Shown here: positions 18,701 to 30,700 of the stretch, piece by piece
Position numbering within the stretch: position 1 is the stretch's first letter
Layout of the letters: each line of letters begins with the position of its first letter
Source: Octopus vulgaris
Lineage: Eukaryota
Assembly (NCBI GenBank): GCA_951406725.2
Contig: OX597838.1
Span: 28,396,001-28,460,000, forward strand
Direction of reading: 5' to 3'
DNA length: 64,000 bases
Made by a program: the position numbers

Positions 18701-21700
18701 AATTTTTTATTCGGTGTATGTGTATATGTATGTATATTACTTCAAAAGTTCCCGCAAGCCCATATATATAAAAAAAATTTTTTTACAGAAATCGACGGTA
18801 AGGTCTACTAGAGGCGAAAGATCGCCTATATCTCAGTAAAATTAATTTAAAAACAAGCATTTTGCGGAAAGTTTTTAAAAAACAAAGTCAGCGACGTTGG
18901 GGCACTAATCTGTAGATCTGCTCTCTTCTGTTTGTCGTATAGTCTATCAGAAGGATTACGTGTATTTAAGTGGGAGTTAGTTTATGAATCTTGGGAAAAT
19001 AGAAGGCAAAGTCAACCCTGGTGAATTTGAAGTGAGACGTAAAATCATGTAAGATCTAAACACCGATTATTACAATATTAAAATATCAAGATCGATAATA
19101 ATAGTATTTATATAAGTAATTATAAATGCTACCATCAAGAGTGACGCACGTGGAATACAAAACCGGATGTTAGAGACAGCTGATGACTAGCATAAACATT
19201 TTATCGAAACTTGTATATATATATTAATTCTAAAGTATTTTGTCAATTTAAAGATACAAAACAATTAAAAATAAAATTATTAATAGAGATAAGTCTAGTA
19301 ACTTAGATTTACTTATAAGAATAATTGAATTACTTCTAAAAATATATTTTGCTTTATCACTACATAGTTGTTAACAGCCACGTATATATCTGTAAGAGAG
19401 CGATCGAAAATTTTAAGACCATGCTTTTAAGGATCATTTCTTAAGTATGTGTCGCAACGGTATCCGATTCCTTTGATCGGTCAACAACATCACGATGATG
19501 CGAGATCGTATTGAGTCCTGAGCGTGAAGCAGGATCTCCTATATCGTTCGTTACTCCGCCTTCAACGAACGTGAGGAATCCATTGAAGATCGTTCTTGAG
19601 AGGTTTAATAACTTCTTAAAGAGGGACTCGATACTTTCTGAGTGATGTTATTTTTAACTAAATTAACAATAGATCATGTTTCCCATGTGACTACGGGCTT
19701 TGTAAATTTCGGCTCTGTCTCGACCCGAAACAAATAAAAGAATTTAAAGTGCCCAAGACGGAATTTGAACTCGGAACGTGGCGGCAGACGAAATTACGTT
19801 AAGCATTTCGCCCGGCGTGCTACGTTTCTTCTTTCTTTATTGCACACAAGGAGCTTAAACATAGAGGGGACAAGGGTATTTGGTCTATTATTTTTCCATA
19901 GCAGGGATTGTGGATTTCGGTTCTAGATATCTACGAAACGGATGAAAATATTAGCTTCGGTTGTTCGACTAAACCAGCGGCGACAAAAAAAAACAAAAAA
20001 ACATCACTAGAGTATTCTGATTTTTTAAATTCCCTGATAAAAAATGAAATTGGGAAAAAAAATCTTGTTGAGAACCTTTCAGTAAGGTATCCCTAGCAGG
20101 AGTGGCTGTGTGGTAAGTAGCTTGTTTACCAACCACATGCTTCCGGGTTCAGTCCCACTGCGTGGCGCATCTTGGGCAAGTGTCTTCCACTATAGCCTCG
20201 GGCCGACCAAAGTCTTGTGAGTGGATTTGGTAGACGGAAACTGAAAGAAGCCCGTCGTATATATGTATGTATATATATATATGCGTGTGTGTGTGTTTGT
20301 CCCCCCCCCCCAGCGTTGCTTGACAACCGATGCTGGTGTGTTTATGTACCCGTCACTTAGCGGTTCGGCAAAAGTGACCGATAGAATAAGTACTGTGCTT
20401 ACAAAAGAATAAGTCCTGGAGTCGAGTTGCTCGATTAAAGGCGGTGCTCCAGCATGGCCGCTGTCAAATGACTGAAACAAGTAAAAGAGAGCATATTGGC
20501 AATGAATTGCAATCCCCAAAAAGCATTAAGGGAGCTGAAGGATTAGAATTAATCAAAAGACAACGGTATCCGATTCCATTGAGCGGATCAACAACATCAC
20601 GATGATGTGAGATTGTATTGAGTCCTGAGCGTGAAGCAGGATCTCCTGTATCGTTCGTTCCTCTCTTTTAACGAATGTGAGGGATCCATTGAGGATCGTT
20701 CTTGAGAGGTTTAATAACTTCTTAAAGAGGGACTCAATACTTTCTGAGTGATGTTAATCCTCTTTACAAAAGTCCTTAAGTCCCCTGGAATTTTTTTTTT
20801 TTTACTAATGTCACTCGTTTGATTGTGCCCATGCTGCAACACCAGCCATCCTCCAATCTTCCAGGTTTTATTCGTCGAAGAAATCGATCCCAGGTTTTAT
20901 CTCACCTGAACCTTTTCCCGGAGGACTTATTCTTTGTAAGCCTAGTACTTATTCTATCGGTGTGTTTTGCCGAACCGCTAAGTTACGGGAACGTAAACAC
21001 AACAGCATCGGTTGTCAAGCGATGTTGGCGGGAGTGGAGGGGGGGACAATCACACACACACACATGAGCGAAAGAGATAATTAATAGAGAAATAGGGCGA
21101 ATGTAATTGAAATTCCTTAGATAACTATCAACTCCATAGTAAATAACGAATCAGCCAACACAGTAAGGGAAACAACTCAAGCAAAGTGTTGTCTCTCTCT
21201 CTATCCGCTCAGTCGAAGTCGACTCTCGGTTACTCAATGGATCAGTGTCCTCTAGTCAGTTCTATCCTGAGCCGCTTCTTTCAGATTGGCTATGTCCATT
21301 CCGGTATCACTCTTGATGGTGTCAAGCCAGCGGATTCTTGGTCGACCTCTTCCTCTCTTGCCACTGACCATTCCGAGCATGATGTCCTTCTCCTGGGATT
21401 TTCTCCGCATAATATGACCAAAATATGCCAATCTATGCTTGGTGATCCTAGCTTCTAGCGACATTTTCGGCCTGATCTGCTTAAGAACTTCTCCATTGGT
21501 GAGCCTCGCTGTCCATGGAATCCGTAAAAGTCTTCTCCAACACCAAAGCTCGAATGCATTAATTCTCTTCTGGTCAGCTTTCTTTAGTGTTGTACTAAAT
21601 GATATTTCTGGAATCGTTTGTTCAGAATGACTCGTGACAACACTCTTGTCCGTCTCCCTTTCGCATTTACAATATCGGGAAACGTTGCGTATCTATGAAG

Positions 21701-27700: not shown

Positions 27701-30700
27701 ATAAACATATTCTGCCAGTAGACGAAGTTCAAAACTTTTTAGTTACCTAGAAATTGTTACAAAGTGCCGTTCAAAAGGAAAAGATGGAGGGAGTTTATGT
27801 GGCACCATCCAGTTTGTCTGATCTAATTTTATCCCTTTCATTACAAAAAAAAGTGTGTGAGACTTGAACGAGATTTAACTGCTATTTCTAACAATTCTAA
27901 ATACTCTATTGATTGCAAAAGTAGAAGTGATGTCTTTCTTTTTTTTATGGCATCCAGTGGTTTTAGACGAACAAACCGAAGCTAATATTATAATCATACG
28001 TTTCGAAACAGCAAAGAGAAGATACATCTTGAACCGAAACCCACAATAACATATGTTATGATCTATTATTAATTTAGTAGAAAATAACATCACTCAGAAA
28101 GTATCGAGTCCCTCTTTAAGAAGTTATTAAACCTCTCAAGAACGATCTTCAATGGATTCCTCACGTTCGTTGAAGGCGGAGTAACGAACGATAGAGGAGA
28201 TCCTGCTTCACGCTCAGGACTCAATACGATCTCGCATCATCGTGATGTTGTTGACCGATCAAAGGAATCGGATACCGTTGCGACACATACTTAAGAAATG
28301 ATCCTTAAAAGCATGGTCTTAAATTTTTAAACGCTACCCAACAGGAACATATCTATGTAGCTGCTACAATCCTATAGTGATTTCACAGAATACATTTAGC
28401 GAATTCAGTAATTATTGTCTTAAATAAATCTAGATCTTATCATGTATTATGGTCACCAACACCATTATAAATAGTTCTGACCATTGAAATTTAGAAAATA
28501 CTCTAGATTTATATATATATATGCATTGTATAAAATATATATTCTGTATTGTGTAGTAGTGCCATCAGCTGTTTGTCACATCCGGTTTCGTATTTTGACA
28601 CTTATGACGAACTGACAGAATCTTTAGCAAGCCGGACAGACTACTTAACGGCCTTTTTCTTTTCTTTTTTTTTCGGGCTTGACGTTCTGAGTTCAAATAC
28701 TGCAGAGGTAGACTTTACCTTTCATCTTTTCCGTATAAATAAATTAAATACCAGTTGATCGATAAAATCGATTTGCCCCGCATCCCAAACTTTCCGGCAG
28801 AAAGGATTATTAAAATTTATCGACATTCATTAAACATCAACCTTAATGATATTTTAAGGTTATACTATATTATGTTTACTGAACTCAAATTCCGCCGAGG
28901 TCGACAAATTAAGTACCAGTTACGTACTGGAGTCGATCTAATCGATTGGTCGCCCCACCTCCCCCAAAATTTCTTGCCTTGTGCCTAGAGTAGAAAAGAA
29001 TACATCATGTTTACGCTTCCACCACCTGACGTTCAAATTCCTTCTGCGGCGAATTTACTTTTAATTTACCAAAGTCAAAAAAAATATGTGTTACTGAGAA
29101 AGATCCTCAAACGCGACTCCAAATAATCTTCACATACCTACAGACTGCTATCTCCCACAATCCAAATTTGTTTCCTCGAATCTTTCCGGAAATTTCGTTA
29201 TTTGGTAAATGTACGTTTTCCGAGAATGTAGATTGCGATTACTTTTTTTTTTATATATAATCTTATGCTTGTTTCAGCCATTAGACTGCGGCCATGCTGG
29301 GGTATCACCTTGAAGAATTGTAAGGACAATGAATCGACCCCTATATGACTCCCCATTGGAGGGAGTTTATGTGGCACCATCCAGTTGGTCATGGCGCAGT
29401 GGTGGCTGTGTGCTTACCAACCACATGGTTCCGGTTTCAGTCCTACTGCGTGGCACCTTGGGCAAGTGTCTTCTACTATAACTTCGGGCCGACCAAAGCC
29501 CTGAGTGGATTTGGTAGACGGAAACTGAAAGAAGCCCGTCGTATATATATATATATATGTGCGTGTGCGTTTGTCCATTGTCTCGACCACGGTCGAACAA
29601 TGATGATTGTCCCCCTAGCATTGCTTGACCAAAGATGCTGGTGTGTTTATGTCCCCGTAACGTAGCGGCTCGGCAAAAGTGACCGATAGAATAAGTCCCG
29701 GGGCCGAGTTGCTCGACTAAAGGCGGTGCTCCAGCATGGCCTCAGTCAAATGACTGAAACAAGCAAAAGAAAGTGGTTTTAGTCGAACAAAATTTCGAAA
29801 CAGCAGAGATACATCTAGAACCGAAATCCACAGACCCCATGACATATTATGATCTATTGTTAATTTAGTATAAAAAATAACATCACTCAGAAAGTATCGA
29901 GTCCCTCTTTAAGAAGTTATTAAACCTCTCAAGAACGATCTTCAATGGATTCCTCACGTTCGTTGAAGGCGGAGTAACGAACGATACAGGAGATCCTGCT
30001 TCACGCTCAGGACTCAATACGATCTCGCATCATCGTGATGTTGTTGACCGATCAAAGGAATCGGATACCGTTGCGACACATACTTAAGAAATGATCCTTA
30101 AAAGCATGGTCTTAAAATTTTATGAACGCTACCCAAAGATATATACGTGGCTGTTTTACTTATGTAGTGGTTTCAAAGAATATAATTAACAAAGAACTTA
30201 ATTAACTGTAAAGTAAATATAAAGCTTAAATAAATATTTTCTTTTCTTAAAGTATTCTAAATTGTTCTGTATCTAAATATTGAGAAAACACATTAGATTT
30301 AGTATGTATAAACTGGTTTGTATAAAGTATTTCTGTTAAATTTTGCGATTCAGTCATCAGCTGCTTCTAACATCCGGTTTCTATTTGACGTCATTATTCT
30401 TAGCTCGTATTATCCCTTATCGTTGTTTATACTTAATACAGTTATCAATCTTAATAATATTTTCAGATGATAATACGTTTATGTCTACACATTATTTTAG
30501 TTTACGTTGTTTGTTCAAATTCCGTCTGGTTCAACAGTGAATTATATTTTTACAAGCTAAAGTAATTATTTCCCGGTGAAGCACCAATAAACGTTCCGAC
30601 TGCAAACACGTTACCTCCATAAGTAATCATATTTTATGCTTATATCAAATGATTATCAAAATCAATTTCGGTGTAAATTGCGAGTATCGTGTTCATTCAA

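What the first reader, a model, noticed from the sequence alone, without database searches (positions are those of the whole stretch)
19415..30113. Amplified, homogenised U3 snoRNA gene cluster
Six full-length copies differ by only about one base each, while several flanks are strongly diverged, and there are two truncated copies, all within 11 kb. This pattern implies purifying selection and/or gene conversion confined to the RNA and its promoter elements, with birth-and-death turnover. The cluster is invisible in the ORF track and could be mistaken for a CRISPR-like or satellite repeat. Whether it has been described before cannot be determined from here.
Basis: partly seen in the sequence, partly recalled or inferred. 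Interest (0 to 1): 0.8.

Follow-up and report, generated by a model that had tools for sequence, protein, structure and literature searches.

The report
Octopod U3 snoRNA gene cluster
Six near-identical genes for U3, the small RNA that helps cut ribosomal RNA, plus two decayed copies, lie within 11 kb of an octopus-like genome; multi-copy U3 genes are already known in other animals and fungi, so this is an ordinary find.

Summary
Rfam's U3 model (RF00012) hits six full-length 232-nt copies at 120-126 bits (cut-off 34). It also hits one copy that has lost its 5' domain (85 bits). BLAST adds a 3' fragment of 44-48 nt. Each full copy differs from the consensus at 0 or 1 base.

"Diverged flanks" is only partly true. 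Four copies (c3-c6) sit in recent duplications of one 1.94-kb unit, tandem and inverted, that are 95-98% identical overall. Their identity needs no special explanation. Only c1, c7 and that group are old lineages. Their upstream flanks are 64-70% identical, against 230-232 of 232 in the gene.

All six intact genes, and nothing else in the window, keep two upstream elements. One is PSE-like, near -59..-37. The other is distal, near -270..-244.

Best reading: working, independently transcribed U3 genes kept alike by selection and probably by gene conversion or unequal crossing-over, with birth-and-death turnover. This is a new member of a known kind, of low interest. One open point is a mix of Pol II-like and Pol III-like flanking signals.

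The parts
19415..19646 (+). U3 gene c1, full length 232 nt (G127A relative to the consensus); old lineage with its own flanks
   Evidence: Rfam RF00012 124.3 bits, model 1-219; variant; flank identities
19358..19381 (+). PSE-like box of c1, at -57..-34
   Evidence: Pattern CACTAYA-N7-8-ARCAGCYAC gives 6 matches in the window, all upstream of the six intact genes
19159..19185 (+). Distal conserved element of c1, at -256..-230 (one mismatch)
   Evidence: Pattern GAAACCGGATGT-N6-CAGCTGATG gives 6 matches in the window, all upstream of the six intact genes
20539..20752 (+). U3 pseudogene c2t. U3 nt 41-232 are retained (20561-20752, with weak 3'-flank homology to 20771), carrying 12 substitutions and 2 indels. 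The 5' domain (boxes A'/A) and both promoter elements are gone
   Evidence: Rfam 85.1 bits with the 5' hairpin deleted or unpaired; alignment to c4; no promoter-pattern match
21944..26392 (+). About 2.3 tandem units of 1.94 kb, carrying c3, c4 and c5
   Evidence: Self-BLAST 21944-24443 vs 23881-26387, 97.6% over 2512 columns; repeat spacings 1937-1946
22251..22482 (+). U3 gene c3 (G9C, which turns a predicted G-U pair of the 5' hairpin into C-U)
   Evidence: Rfam 121.2 bits
22192..22214 (+). PSE-like box of c3, at -59..-37
21982..22008 (+). Distal element of c3, at -269..-243
24189..24420 (+). U3 gene c4 (equals the consensus)
   Evidence: Rfam 123.8 bits
24129..24151 (+). PSE-like box of c4, at -60..-38
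23919..23945 (+). Distal element of c4, at -270..-244
26133..26364 (+). U3 gene c5 (G88C). Its 3' flank is degenerate from about +12 and its -30 zone is not TATA-like
   Evidence: Rfam 120.6 bits
26074..26096 (+). PSE-like box of c5, at -59..-37
25863..25889 (+). Distal element of c5, at -270..-244
26615..26687 (+). Dead 3' fragment: U3 nt 185-232 (3 substitutions) plus about 23 nt of 3' flank. It is followed by a c1-type downstream flank reaching 26876
   Evidence: Alignment; BLAST 19599-19890 vs 26615-26876, 75.9%; blastn-short; no Rfam hit
27786..29390 (-). Inverted copy of the same 1.94-kb unit, carrying c6. It lacks the SINE-like insert that c3, c4 and c7 have downstream
   Evidence: Self-BLAST 25054-26392 vs 29390-28061, 97.1%; 23108-24551 vs 29390-27956, 95.1%; 22976-23140 vs 27957-27786, 90.7%
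28089..28320 (-). U3 gene c6 (G127C)
   Evidence: Rfam 126 bits
28357..28379 (-). PSE-like box of c6
28563..28589 (-). Distal element of c6
29882..30113 (-). U3 gene c7 (equals the consensus); old lineage with a diverged upstream flank
   Evidence: Rfam 123.8 bits
30147..30169 (-). PSE-like box of c7
30355..30381 (-). Distal element of c7
12564..12668 (-). Context only: first coding exon of a PIPOX-like (peroxisomal sarcosine oxidase) gene that runs leftwards. The cluster starts about 6.7 kb upstream of its ATG
   Evidence: 97% identity over 35 aa to Octopus sinensis and O. bimaculoides PIPOX; further exons mapped by tblastn

Best explanation
This is an intergenic cluster of six intact, independently transcribed genes for U3 small nucleolar RNA, in an octopod genome. 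U3 is the box C/D RNA of the small-subunit processome; it pairs with the 5' ETS and 18S parts of pre-rRNA.

Shown here:
- The RNA identity and its full-length U3 architecture.
- Three old gene lineages (c1; c7; the ancestor of c3-c6), plus a recent amplification of one 1.94-kb unit into three tandem copies and one inverted copy.
- Two upstream elements kept in every intact gene, at the positions where animal snRNA-type promoters carry their proximal (PSE) and distal (DSE) elements.
- A near-identical block running from about -9 to about +262, which is the RNA plus roughly 30 nt of 3' flank.
- Two copies that lost their 5' part and both promoter elements and are decaying.

Inferred:
- Each gene is transcribed from its own SNAPc-type promoter. 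RNA polymerase II is the more likely polymerase, with the conserved block just past the 3' end acting as a 3'-end-formation signal.
- The RNA region is kept uniform by purifying selection, helped by gene conversion or unequal crossing-over between copies.
- Copies are born by segmental duplication and die by truncation (birth and death).
For: Identity as U3. 6 of 6 copies score 120-126 bits against a cut-off of 34 over the whole model. The conserved 5' box A region, box B (GAGCGUGAAGC) and box D (CUGA) are matched. The thermodynamic fold on its own gives a 5' hairpin plus a closed 3' domain (z = -3.6).

Copy number. There are 8 U3-like places in the window, 6 of them full-length.

Constraint or homogenisation. 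Between the three old lineages the gene is identical at 230-232 of 232 positions. The -300..-1 flank is 64-70% identical, with 21-22% mismatches in ungapped columns. P(<=1 mismatch in 232) is about 1e-22 to 1e-25.

Promoter footprints. Both patterns match 6 times in 64 kb, only at -59..-37 and -270..-244 of intact genes (c1 slightly shifted). The two dead copies have neither. These positions fit the published snRNA promoter layout of a PSE at -40..-70 and a DSE at -250..-170 (PMC9652321, passages).

Exchange between copies. Within c3-c6, 9 sites split (c3,c4 | c5,c6), 4 sites (-37, -34, -26, -25) split (c3 | c4,c5,c6), and site +241 splits (c3,c6 | c4,c5). These partitions are mutually incompatible. 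A SINE-like insert is shared by c3, c4 and the anciently diverged c7 but is absent from the young c6 unit.

Neutral decay once a copy is released. c2t has 14 changes in 192 nt, and the fragment has 3 in 48.

Precedent. Multi-copy, nearly identical U3 paralogs attributed to concerted evolution are reported in fungi (PMC5832005, passages). U3 is grouped with Pol II snRNA-type promoters in Lepidoptera (PMC11892584, passages).
Against: - There are no expression data. Transcription, ends, cap and polymerase are all inferred.
- The promoter patterns were written from these same six copies. Their 6 matches are therefore by construction; only the absence of further matches is informative.
- No other snRNA gene lies in the window, so the PSE-like box could not be compared with a species consensus.
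- Gene conversion is not proven. Strong selection on the whole RNA could also keep three lineages identical, and the incompatible sites are few (14 in all).
- Four of the six copies owe their identity to recent duplication.
- Pol III-like signals sit beside the Pol II-like ones: a TATA-like -30 zone in c1, c3, c7 and less clearly c4, and a T4-T6 run 5 nt past the 3' end in 6 of 6.
- c3 (G9C breaks a predicted pair) and c5 (G88C, degenerate 3' flank) may be less fit than the others.
- Assembly correctness is untested.
Confidence: 0.8

Rival explanations
1. Selection only. The copies are real and functional, but the near-identity of the RNA across the three old lineages comes entirely from purifying selection on every position of U3. 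No gene conversion or crossing-over homogenises them.
For: The only variable sites among the six copies are 9, 88 and 127. Sites 88 and 127 are unpaired in the predicted fold, and site 127 carries three different bases, as expected where constraint is weak. The promoter boxes are conserved but differ between lineages, so they are clearly under selection rather than homogenisation. The identical block begins within a few bases of the predicted first nucleotide of the RNA.
Against: Loop and insert regions are also identical in all six. This includes the 15-nt stretch that the Rfam model treats as an insertion and where c2t accumulated 5 of its 14 changes. About 30 nt beyond the RNA are 77-97% identical across lineages, against 54-59% in the next 100 nt for c1 versus the others. 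Incompatible site partitions and the SINE presence/absence pattern show that sequence has moved between units.
Confidence: 0.3
2. Assembly artefact. Some or all of c3-c6 are false duplications, such as haplotypes or mis-joined reads of one 1.94-kb unit, so the true number of intact genes is nearer three.
For: The units are 95-98% identical. Published precedent: six U3 loci in a Schistosoma mansoni assembly, identical together with their flanks, were judged to be a single gene (PMC2770079, passage).
Against: The units are not identical: there are about 2.4% differences over 2.5 kb for the tandem pair and 3-5% for the inverted copy. They carry private gene variants (G9C, G88C, G127C). They have different junctions and orientations, and one unit lacks a roughly 370-bp SINE-like insert. 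c1 and c7 have unrelated flanks and cannot be artefacts of the same unit.
Confidence: 0.07
3. Pol III genes. [quoted passage not shown] A variant is that TATA-bearing and TATA-less copies use different polymerases.
For: A TATA-like string (TATATAT or ATATATA) lies about -34..-25, just 3' of the PSE-like box, in c1, c3, c7 and less clearly c4. A run of T4-T6 starts 5 nt past the Rfam 3' end in 6 of 6 copies. In human snRNA-type promoters a TATA box 3' of the PSE specifies Pol III (PMC9652321, passage). U3 is a Pol III product in plants, trypanosomatids and other protists (PMC2784804, passage).
Against: - A T4 run lies inside the RNA at nt 11-14 in all copies and could stop Pol III early.
- c5 and c6 have no TATA-like string.
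- A conserved block (ACTAAATTAACAATAGATCA) continues beyond the T run. Pol III would not need it, and it sits where Pol II snRNA genes carry a 3' box; that position and consensus are recalled, not tested.
- The genome is 61.5% A+T. By chance, TTTT starts within 10 nt of 7.7% of positions, and TATA-like strings fall in 5.6-6.4% of 12-nt windows.
- TATA-like strings 3' of the PSEA occur in some lepidopteran telomerase RNA promoters that were nevertheless shown to be Pol II (PMC11892584, passage).
- Animal U3 genes studied so far are Pol II (recalled; lepidopteran grouping).
Confidence: 0.12
4. Non-functional repeat. The copies are retroposed U3 pseudogenes, or a satellite or SINE-like family that merely contains U3 sequence.
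For: U3-like sequence is repeated eight times in 11 kb, amid abundant SINE-like repeats.
Against: - The duplicated units include 270 nt or more of upstream and also downstream DNA, with conserved promoter-like boxes. The copying was therefore at the DNA level.
- The alignments show no poly-A tails at the 3' ends.
- The six copies have 0-1 changes each, while the two copies lacking promoters have decayed by 6-7%.
- No U3-like sequence exists elsewhere in the 64 kb.
Confidence: 0.02

Closest known systems
Human U3 (RNU3) gene cluster on chromosome 17p11.2
   Same: Several U3 genes are clustered at one locus, with copies in both orientations ('complex inverted repeat structure'). They are independent snRNA-type transcription units.
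   Different: I know this only from the title of Gao, Frey & Matera 1997 in a reference list; the paper is not held and further details are recalled. The octopod cluster is much more compact (1.8-2.8 kb between genes), mixes a tandem triplet with an inverted pair, and lies in a different phylum with unrelated flanks.
Multi-copy fungal U3 genes under concerted evolution (Schizosaccharomyces japonicus, 11 copies; Allomyces macrogynus, 10)
   Same: Many nearly identical paralogues within one genome. Duplications are recent and lineage-specific, with no diverged paralogue families. The authors attribute this to concerted evolution (PMC5832005, passages).
   Different: Fungal U3 has a different 5' structure and often introns. 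The passages read do not describe the physical arrangement. Here three lineages with old flanks coexist with young duplicates.
Tandem snRNA gene arrays (for example the human RNU2 array; U1 and U2 arrays of sea urchins and frogs)
   Same: The repeat units contain one small-RNA gene with its PSE/DSE promoter. They are homogenised by unequal crossing-over and gene conversion.
   Different: Those arrays hold tens to hundreds of highly uniform units (RNU2: abstract in a search listing only; the rest is recalled). Here there are only about 2.3 tandem units plus inverted and solitary copies, and the spacers are riddled with SINE-like inserts.
Plant and protist U3 genes transcribed by RNA polymerase III
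   Same: An upstream element followed by a TATA-like string near -30, and a T run just past the 3' end.
   Different: The octopod RNA has an internal T4. Two of the six copies lack the TATA-like string, and a conserved block follows the T run. The polymerase switch is documented for plants, trypanosomatids and other protists only (PMC2784804, passage).
U3 proliferation in king crabs (Lithodidae)
   Same: Lineage-specific increase in U3 gene number in a marine invertebrate (PMC8086120, passage).
   Different: That paper describes it as 'massive' proliferation detected by genome-wide counts, with no locus structure in the passage read. Here the cluster is modest, at six genes.

Membership tests
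U3 snoRNA (Rfam RF00012) | Covariance-model score above the curated gathering score, over the full model | tested here: met
   6 of 6 full copies score 120.6-126 bits against 34, over model positions 1-219 of 219. c2t scores 85.1 bits.
U3 snoRNA (Rfam RF00012) | 5' domain with the conserved box A region (AGGAUCAUUUCU-like) that pairs with pre-18S rRNA | tested here: met
   The cmscan alignment matches AGGA-UCAUUUCU in the six full copies. In c2t this domain is absent or unpaired. Pairing to this species' rRNA was not tested, because no rDNA was available.
U3 snoRNA (Rfam RF00012) | 3' domain with the box C'/D and box B/C motifs, closed by a long stem | tested here: met
   C' (CGAUGAUG), B (GAGCGUGAAGC) and D (UCUGAG) are matched. 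Box C reads UUGAAGAUCGUUC, one departure (A for the conserved U) in all six copies. The closing stem is recovered by the CM and by the free-energy fold.
U3 snoRNA (Rfam RF00012) | Expressed, nucleolar, bound by fibrillarin/Nop56/Nop58/Snu13/Rrp9, and required for 18S processing | not testable with these tools
   No RNA or protein data were available.
snRNA-type (SNAPc-dependent) promoter | A proximal element about 40-70 bp upstream of the start and a distal enhancer about 170-250 bp upstream | tested here: inconclusive
   Conserved boxes lie at -59..-37 and -270..-244 in 6 of 6 intact genes and in 0 of 2 dead copies. The positions agree with PMC9652321. No second snRNA gene of this species was available to confirm the motif, and binding is untested.
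Concertedly evolving multigene family | Paralogues more alike than the age of their duplication (as judged from the flanks) allows | tested here: met
   Gene 230-232 of 232 against 64-70% upstream identity between the three old lineages; P about 1e-22 or lower.
Concertedly evolving multigene family | Direct evidence of sequence exchange (conversion tracts, or paralogues grouping by species) | tested here: inconclusive
   Incompatible partitions at 14 sites within c3-c6, and a SINE presence/absence pattern that conflicts with flank similarity. No second species could be examined.
Pol III type-3 gene (U6, 7SK, plant U3) | TATA box about 25-30 bp upstream, 3' of the PSE | tested here: inconclusive
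   Present as TATATAT in c1, c3 and c7, as ATATATA in c4, and absent in c5 and c6.
Pol III type-3 gene (U6, 7SK, plant U3) | A T-run terminator at the 3' end and no T4 or longer run inside the RNA | tested here: not met
   A T4-T6 run follows the gene in 6 of 6 copies, but TTTT also occurs at nt 11-14 of the RNA in all six.

The most novel reading that the evidence does not exclude
Octopod U3 genes may have switched, wholly or copy by copy, to RNA polymerase III. That would be an animal parallel to the plant U3 polymerase switch. The PSE-like box is followed by a TATA-like string in four of the six copies, and every copy ends in a T4-T6 run. The array may therefore hold both TATA-bearing and TATA-less genes that recruit different polymerases to the same RNA.
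Probability: 0.1. Interest if true: 0.55.

Novelty: new member of a known kind. Interest (0 to 1): 0.2.

Why it matters
The practical value is in annotation. These eight repeats are genes and pseudogenes, not a satellite or a CRISPR-like array, and ORF-based tracks miss them.

The locus also gives a compact natural experiment. Three old and four young paralogues sit side by side, and two dead copies serve as a neutral yardstick. Comparing them footprints the first candidate snRNA-type promoter elements for a cephalopod: a PSE-like box, a distal box and a 3' block. These elements could guide the choice of endogenous small-RNA promoters for cephalopod transgenesis or guide-RNA expression.

None of this changes what is known about U3 biology or about how multigene families evolve.

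Tried and rejected
- Tandem Repeats Finder on 21000-27000 returned nothing, because its longest period is 500 and the unit is 1.94 kb. The tandem structure rests on self-BLAST instead.
- The first two promoter patterns had the wrong spacing and gave 0 and 1 matches. They were rewritten.
- Rfam at E<=10 does not see the 3' fragment. It is supported by BLAST and alignment only.
- The sub-threshold miRNA-type Rfam hits (mir-297, mir-3149 and others) all fall below their gathering scores. The mir-297-type hits lie in TG/TA-rich simple sequence, and I disregarded them.
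- ARAGORN found no tRNA in the window, so the SINE-like repeat could not be tied to a tRNA head.
- Pfam on 9 ORFs or exons (LINE-like fragments, PIPOX exons, SINE ORFs) gave 0 families. An earlier version of that call failed on a reference containing stop codons.
- The CRISPR-like or satellite reading is rejected. The repeats are 232-nt structured-RNA genes with irregular 1.1-2.8 kb spacing and two orientations.
- The retropseudogene reading is rejected (see rivals).
- Marz & Stadler 2009 on eukaryotic U3, looked up by a DOI recalled from memory, and Gao et al. 1997 on the human cluster are not held.
Orthologous cephalopod loci, other snRNA genes of this species and its rDNA therefore stayed unchecked.
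- Supplementary tables of the cephalopod genome papers, which may list U3 counts, are closed.
- The PIPOX-like gene was handled exon by exon.

Full report
**1. The observation**

A gathering-threshold Rfam scan of the whole 64-kb window returns seven hits, all to U3 snoRNA (RF00012) and nothing else.

Six are full length: 232 nt, model positions 1-219 of 219, 120.6-126 bits against a cut-off of 34, E 1e-27 to 2.6e-26. I call them:
- c1, 19415-19646 +
- c3, 22251-22482 +
- c4, 24189-24420 +
- c5, 26133-26364 +
- c6, 28089-28320 -
- c7, 29882-30113 -

The seventh, c2t (20539-20752 +, 85.1 bits), has lost the 5' hairpin.

A short-word BLAST of c4 against the window finds exactly eight places: these seven plus a 44-nt 3' fragment at 26619-26662. 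Alignment extends the fragment to 26615-26687. Rfam itself cannot see it.

c4 and c7 equal the consensus of the six copies. c1, c3, c5 and c6 each differ from it at one base: G127A, G9C, G88C and G127C. The copies span 10,699 bp, and the window contains no N. So the counts, coordinates and 'about one base each' are all correct.

**2. What the flanks really look like**

Self-BLAST shows that the cluster is not six independent loci.

- c3, c4 and c5 lie in about 2.3 tandem units of 1.94 kb. 21944-24443 against 23881-26387 is 97.6% identical over 2,512 columns.
- c6 lies in an inverted copy of the same unit. 25054-26392 against 29390-28061 is 97.1% identical; 23108-24551 against 29390-27956 is 95.1%.
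- For these four copies, near-identity of the genes is what recent duplication predicts.
- Only c1 and c7 have old flanks. They match the others, and each other, over about 530 bp only (roughly -270 to +30) at 80-83%, with the gene included.

Identity by compartment, between the three lineages c1, c7 and c3-c6:

| Compartment | Identity |
|---|---|
| -600..-301 | 52-59% |
| -300..-101 | 64-69% |
| -100..-1 | 66-70% |
| Gene | 230-232 of 232 |
| +1..+30 | 77-97% |
| +31..+130, c1 against the others | 54-59% |

Given the 21-22% mismatch rate of ungapped upstream columns, the chance of at most 1 mismatch in 232 is about 1e-22 to 1e-25.

**3. Promoter-like footprints**

Aligning the six upstream regions shows islands of conservation in otherwise diverged sequence.

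- GAAACCGGATGT-N6-CAGCTGATG occurs six times in the window, at -270..-244 of c3-c7 and -256..-230 of c1.
- CACTAYA-N7-8-ARCAGCYAC occurs six times, at about -59..-37.
- Neither occurs anywhere else, and neither dead copy has them.
- Because the patterns were written from these copies, the six matches are by construction. What is informative is the conservation across lineages whose surrounding sequence is 64-70% identical, and the absence of the boxes from the pseudogenes.
- The positions agree with the general layout of animal snRNA-type promoters: PSE 40-70 bp and DSE 170-250 bp upstream (PMC9652321, passages).
- The boxes differ between lineages. The PSE-like box has three versions, so they are conserved rather than homogenised.

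**4. The homogenised block and the 3' end**

The near-identical block runs from within about 9 nt of the first nucleotide to about 30 nt past the Rfam 3' end. Past the RNA, every copy reads GTTATTTT with a T run of 4-6, followed by ACTAAATTAACAATAGATCA or a close variant. c5 is the most degenerate.

**5. Which polymerase?**

The signals are mixed.

Pol III-like:
- A TATA-like string just 3' of the PSE-like box, as TATATAT in c1, c3 and c7 and ATATATA in c4.
- The T run at the 3' end in 6 of 6 copies.
- In human, a TATA box 3' of the PSE specifies Pol III. U3 is a Pol III product in plants, trypanosomatids and other protists (PMC2784804, passage).

Against Pol III:
- c5 and c6 lack the TATA-like string.
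- The RNA itself contains TTTT at nt 11-14.
- A conserved block follows the T run, where Pol II snRNA genes have their 3' box. That consensus is recalled, not tested.
- The window is 61.5% A+T, so such strings are common. TTTT starts within 10 nt of 7.7% of positions, and TATA-like strings fall in 5.6-6.4% of 12-nt windows.
- Lepidopteran U3 is grouped with Pol II snRNA promoters. TATA-like strings 3' of the PSEA occur in telomerase RNA promoters that proved to be Pol II (PMC11892584, passages).

I judge Pol II the more likely and give Pol III about 0.1.

**6. Selection, conversion, birth and death**

Selection is evident from the footprints and from what happens without it.
- c2t retains U3 nt 41-232 with 12 substitutions and 2 indels in 192 nt. 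Many are C-to-T or G-to-A changes at CG dinucleotides, read off the alignment.
- The fragment has 3 substitutions in 48 nt.
- The two dead copies share G216A, at a CG site.

Exchange between copies is suggested but not proven.
- Within c3-c6, nine sites support (c3,c4 | c5,c6). Four clustered sites at -37 to -25 support (c3 | c4,c5,c6). Site +241 supports (c3,c6 | c4,c5). No single tree fits all of these.
- A SINE-like insert about 130 nt downstream is shared by c3, c4 and the old lineage c7, yet is missing from the young c6 unit.
- Regions of the RNA where the dead copy changed freely are invariant in all six intact copies. c2t carries 5 of its 14 changes in the 15-nt insert of the variable stem.
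- The three variable sites of the intact copies are 9 (a predicted G-U pair, broken in c3), 88 and 127 (both unpaired; 127 carries three different bases).
- The fragment at 26615 carries a c1-type downstream flank. 26615-26876 against 19599-19890 is 75.9% identical. A second c1-type gene therefore once existed and was truncated.

Together this is a birth-and-death picture with probable homogenisation of the transcribed block.

**7. Context and organism**

A Rossmann-motif scan of the six-frame translation found one hit. It is the first coding exon (12668-12564, minus strand) of a sarcosine-oxidase gene.
- The 35 coded residues, sent with five in-frame upstream codons to reach the 40-aa minimum, are 97% identical to peroxisomal sarcosine oxidase of Octopus sinensis and O. 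bimaculoides, and 88% identical to that of Argonauta hians.
- tblastn of four of the nine returned proteins places further exons at 8930-8781, 4975-4757, 2682-2491 and 1569-1420.
- Identity drops to 50-80% in the later exons. This is therefore either a paralogue or a species not in the protein set.
- I searched exon 1 alone. I did not build or search a joined spliced model.

The cluster begins about 6.7 kb upstream of that gene's ATG and appears to be intergenic. No other protein family was recognised near it: 0 families for 9 ORFs. The window is full of a roughly 400-bp SINE-like repeat.

**8. Comparison with what is known**

- Multi-copy U3 genes are ordinary. A survey of 147 fungal genomes found 310 U3 genes, with up to 11 nearly identical paralogues in one genome, ascribed to concerted evolution (PMC5832005, passages).
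- Euglena has at least 13 hybridising bands (PMC2784804, passages).
- King crabs show 'massive' U3 proliferation (PMC8086120, passage).
- Human U3 genes are clustered at 17p11.2 in a complex inverted repeat. I saw this only as a title in a reference list.
- The giant squid genome paper annotated snoRNAs with Rfam (174 loci) but does not discuss U3 in the passages I read (PMC6962438).
- Full-text searches found no description of a cephalopod or mollusc U3 locus:
  - 'U3 snoRNA' + 'cephalopod': 0 papers.
  - 'U3 snoRNA' + 'octopus': 1 paper, judged irrelevant from its title and abstract opening in the listing.
  - 'U3 snoRNA' + 'mollus': 4 papers. Passages of two and the titles of the other two show none on mollusc U3 genes.
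- Supplementary tables and subscription journals were not searchable. Automatic genome annotations probably already label such genes; that is recalled, not checked.

The locus is thus a new member of a known kind.

**9. Caveats**

- There are no reads, so a false duplication of the young units cannot be excluded. A published case exists in Schistosoma (PMC2770079). Against it, the units differ by 2.4-5%, carry private variants and differ in structure.
- There are no RNA data, so expression, ends, cap and polymerase are all inferred.
- No second species and no other snRNA gene of this genome could be examined. Gene conversion and the PSE assignment therefore remain inferences.

**10. Verdict**

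It is of low interest to a specialist (0.2). The only thread with some novelty is the mixed polymerase signal.

Noticed in passing
window 17633-18031, 20096-20489, 22611-22977, 24553-24922, 29411-29770, 37098-37478, 37791-38197, 54046-54540, 56056-56418: A roughly 400-bp SINE-like repeat occurs at least nine times in the window at 70-92% identity, in both orientations, including inside the U3 repeat units. ARAGORN finds no tRNA in it.
   Followed up: partly
window 22483-22980, 24421-24925, 27786-28088, 29398-29881: The SINE-like insert sits at the same site (after CTAAAACCACT, about 130 nt downstream of U3) in c3, c4 and the anciently diverged c7. It is missing from the young c6 unit, which has only about 10 unrelated bases there. 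This presence/absence pattern conflicts with flank similarity and points to deletion or exchange between units.
   Followed up: partly
window 27172-27322: An imperfect palindrome of about 150 nt folds as DNA at -30.4 kcal/mol (z = -6.9, 0 of 200 shuffles as good). It lies within about 20 nt of the symmetry centre (about 27226) of the large inverted duplication that carries c5 and c6. It also accounts for the sub-threshold miRNA-like Rfam hits on both strands. It might mark how the inversion arose.
   Followed up: partly
window 24357-24369 (and the same place in the other five copies): Box C of all six U3 copies reads UGAAGA, where the Rfam consensus has the strongly conserved UGAUGA. The pseudogene c2t has UGAGGA. 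This probably replaces a U-U mismatch of the B/C kink-turn with an A-U pair, though that is inference.
   Followed up: no
window 1420-12668, minus strand: The PIPOX-like gene is 97% and 86-88% identical to Octopus proteins in exons 1-2 but only 50-80% in exons 3-5, and it runs off the left end of the window. It is either a paralogue of the annotated octopus genes or comes from a species absent from the protein set.
   Followed up: partly
window 26133-26400: c5 combines G88C next to box C', a non-TATA -30 zone and a degenerate 3' flank (23-25 of 30 matches to the other copies), and its unit breaks off 28 nt past the gene. It may be on the way to becoming a pseudogene.
   Followed up: partly
window 30843-31370: A long (TCTA/TCTG)n tetranucleotide microsatellite of about 0.5 kb directly flanks the right edge of the cluster. 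TG/TA-rich simple repeats at 18315-18480 lie about 0.9 kb to the left of c1.
   Followed up: no
window 21255-21692 minus strand; 5277-5603 plus strand: These ORF fragments look to me like the C-terminal part of LINE reverse-transcriptase proteins; that resemblance is recalled. One lies between c2t and c3. Pfam found nothing at E<=0.01.
   Followed up: partly
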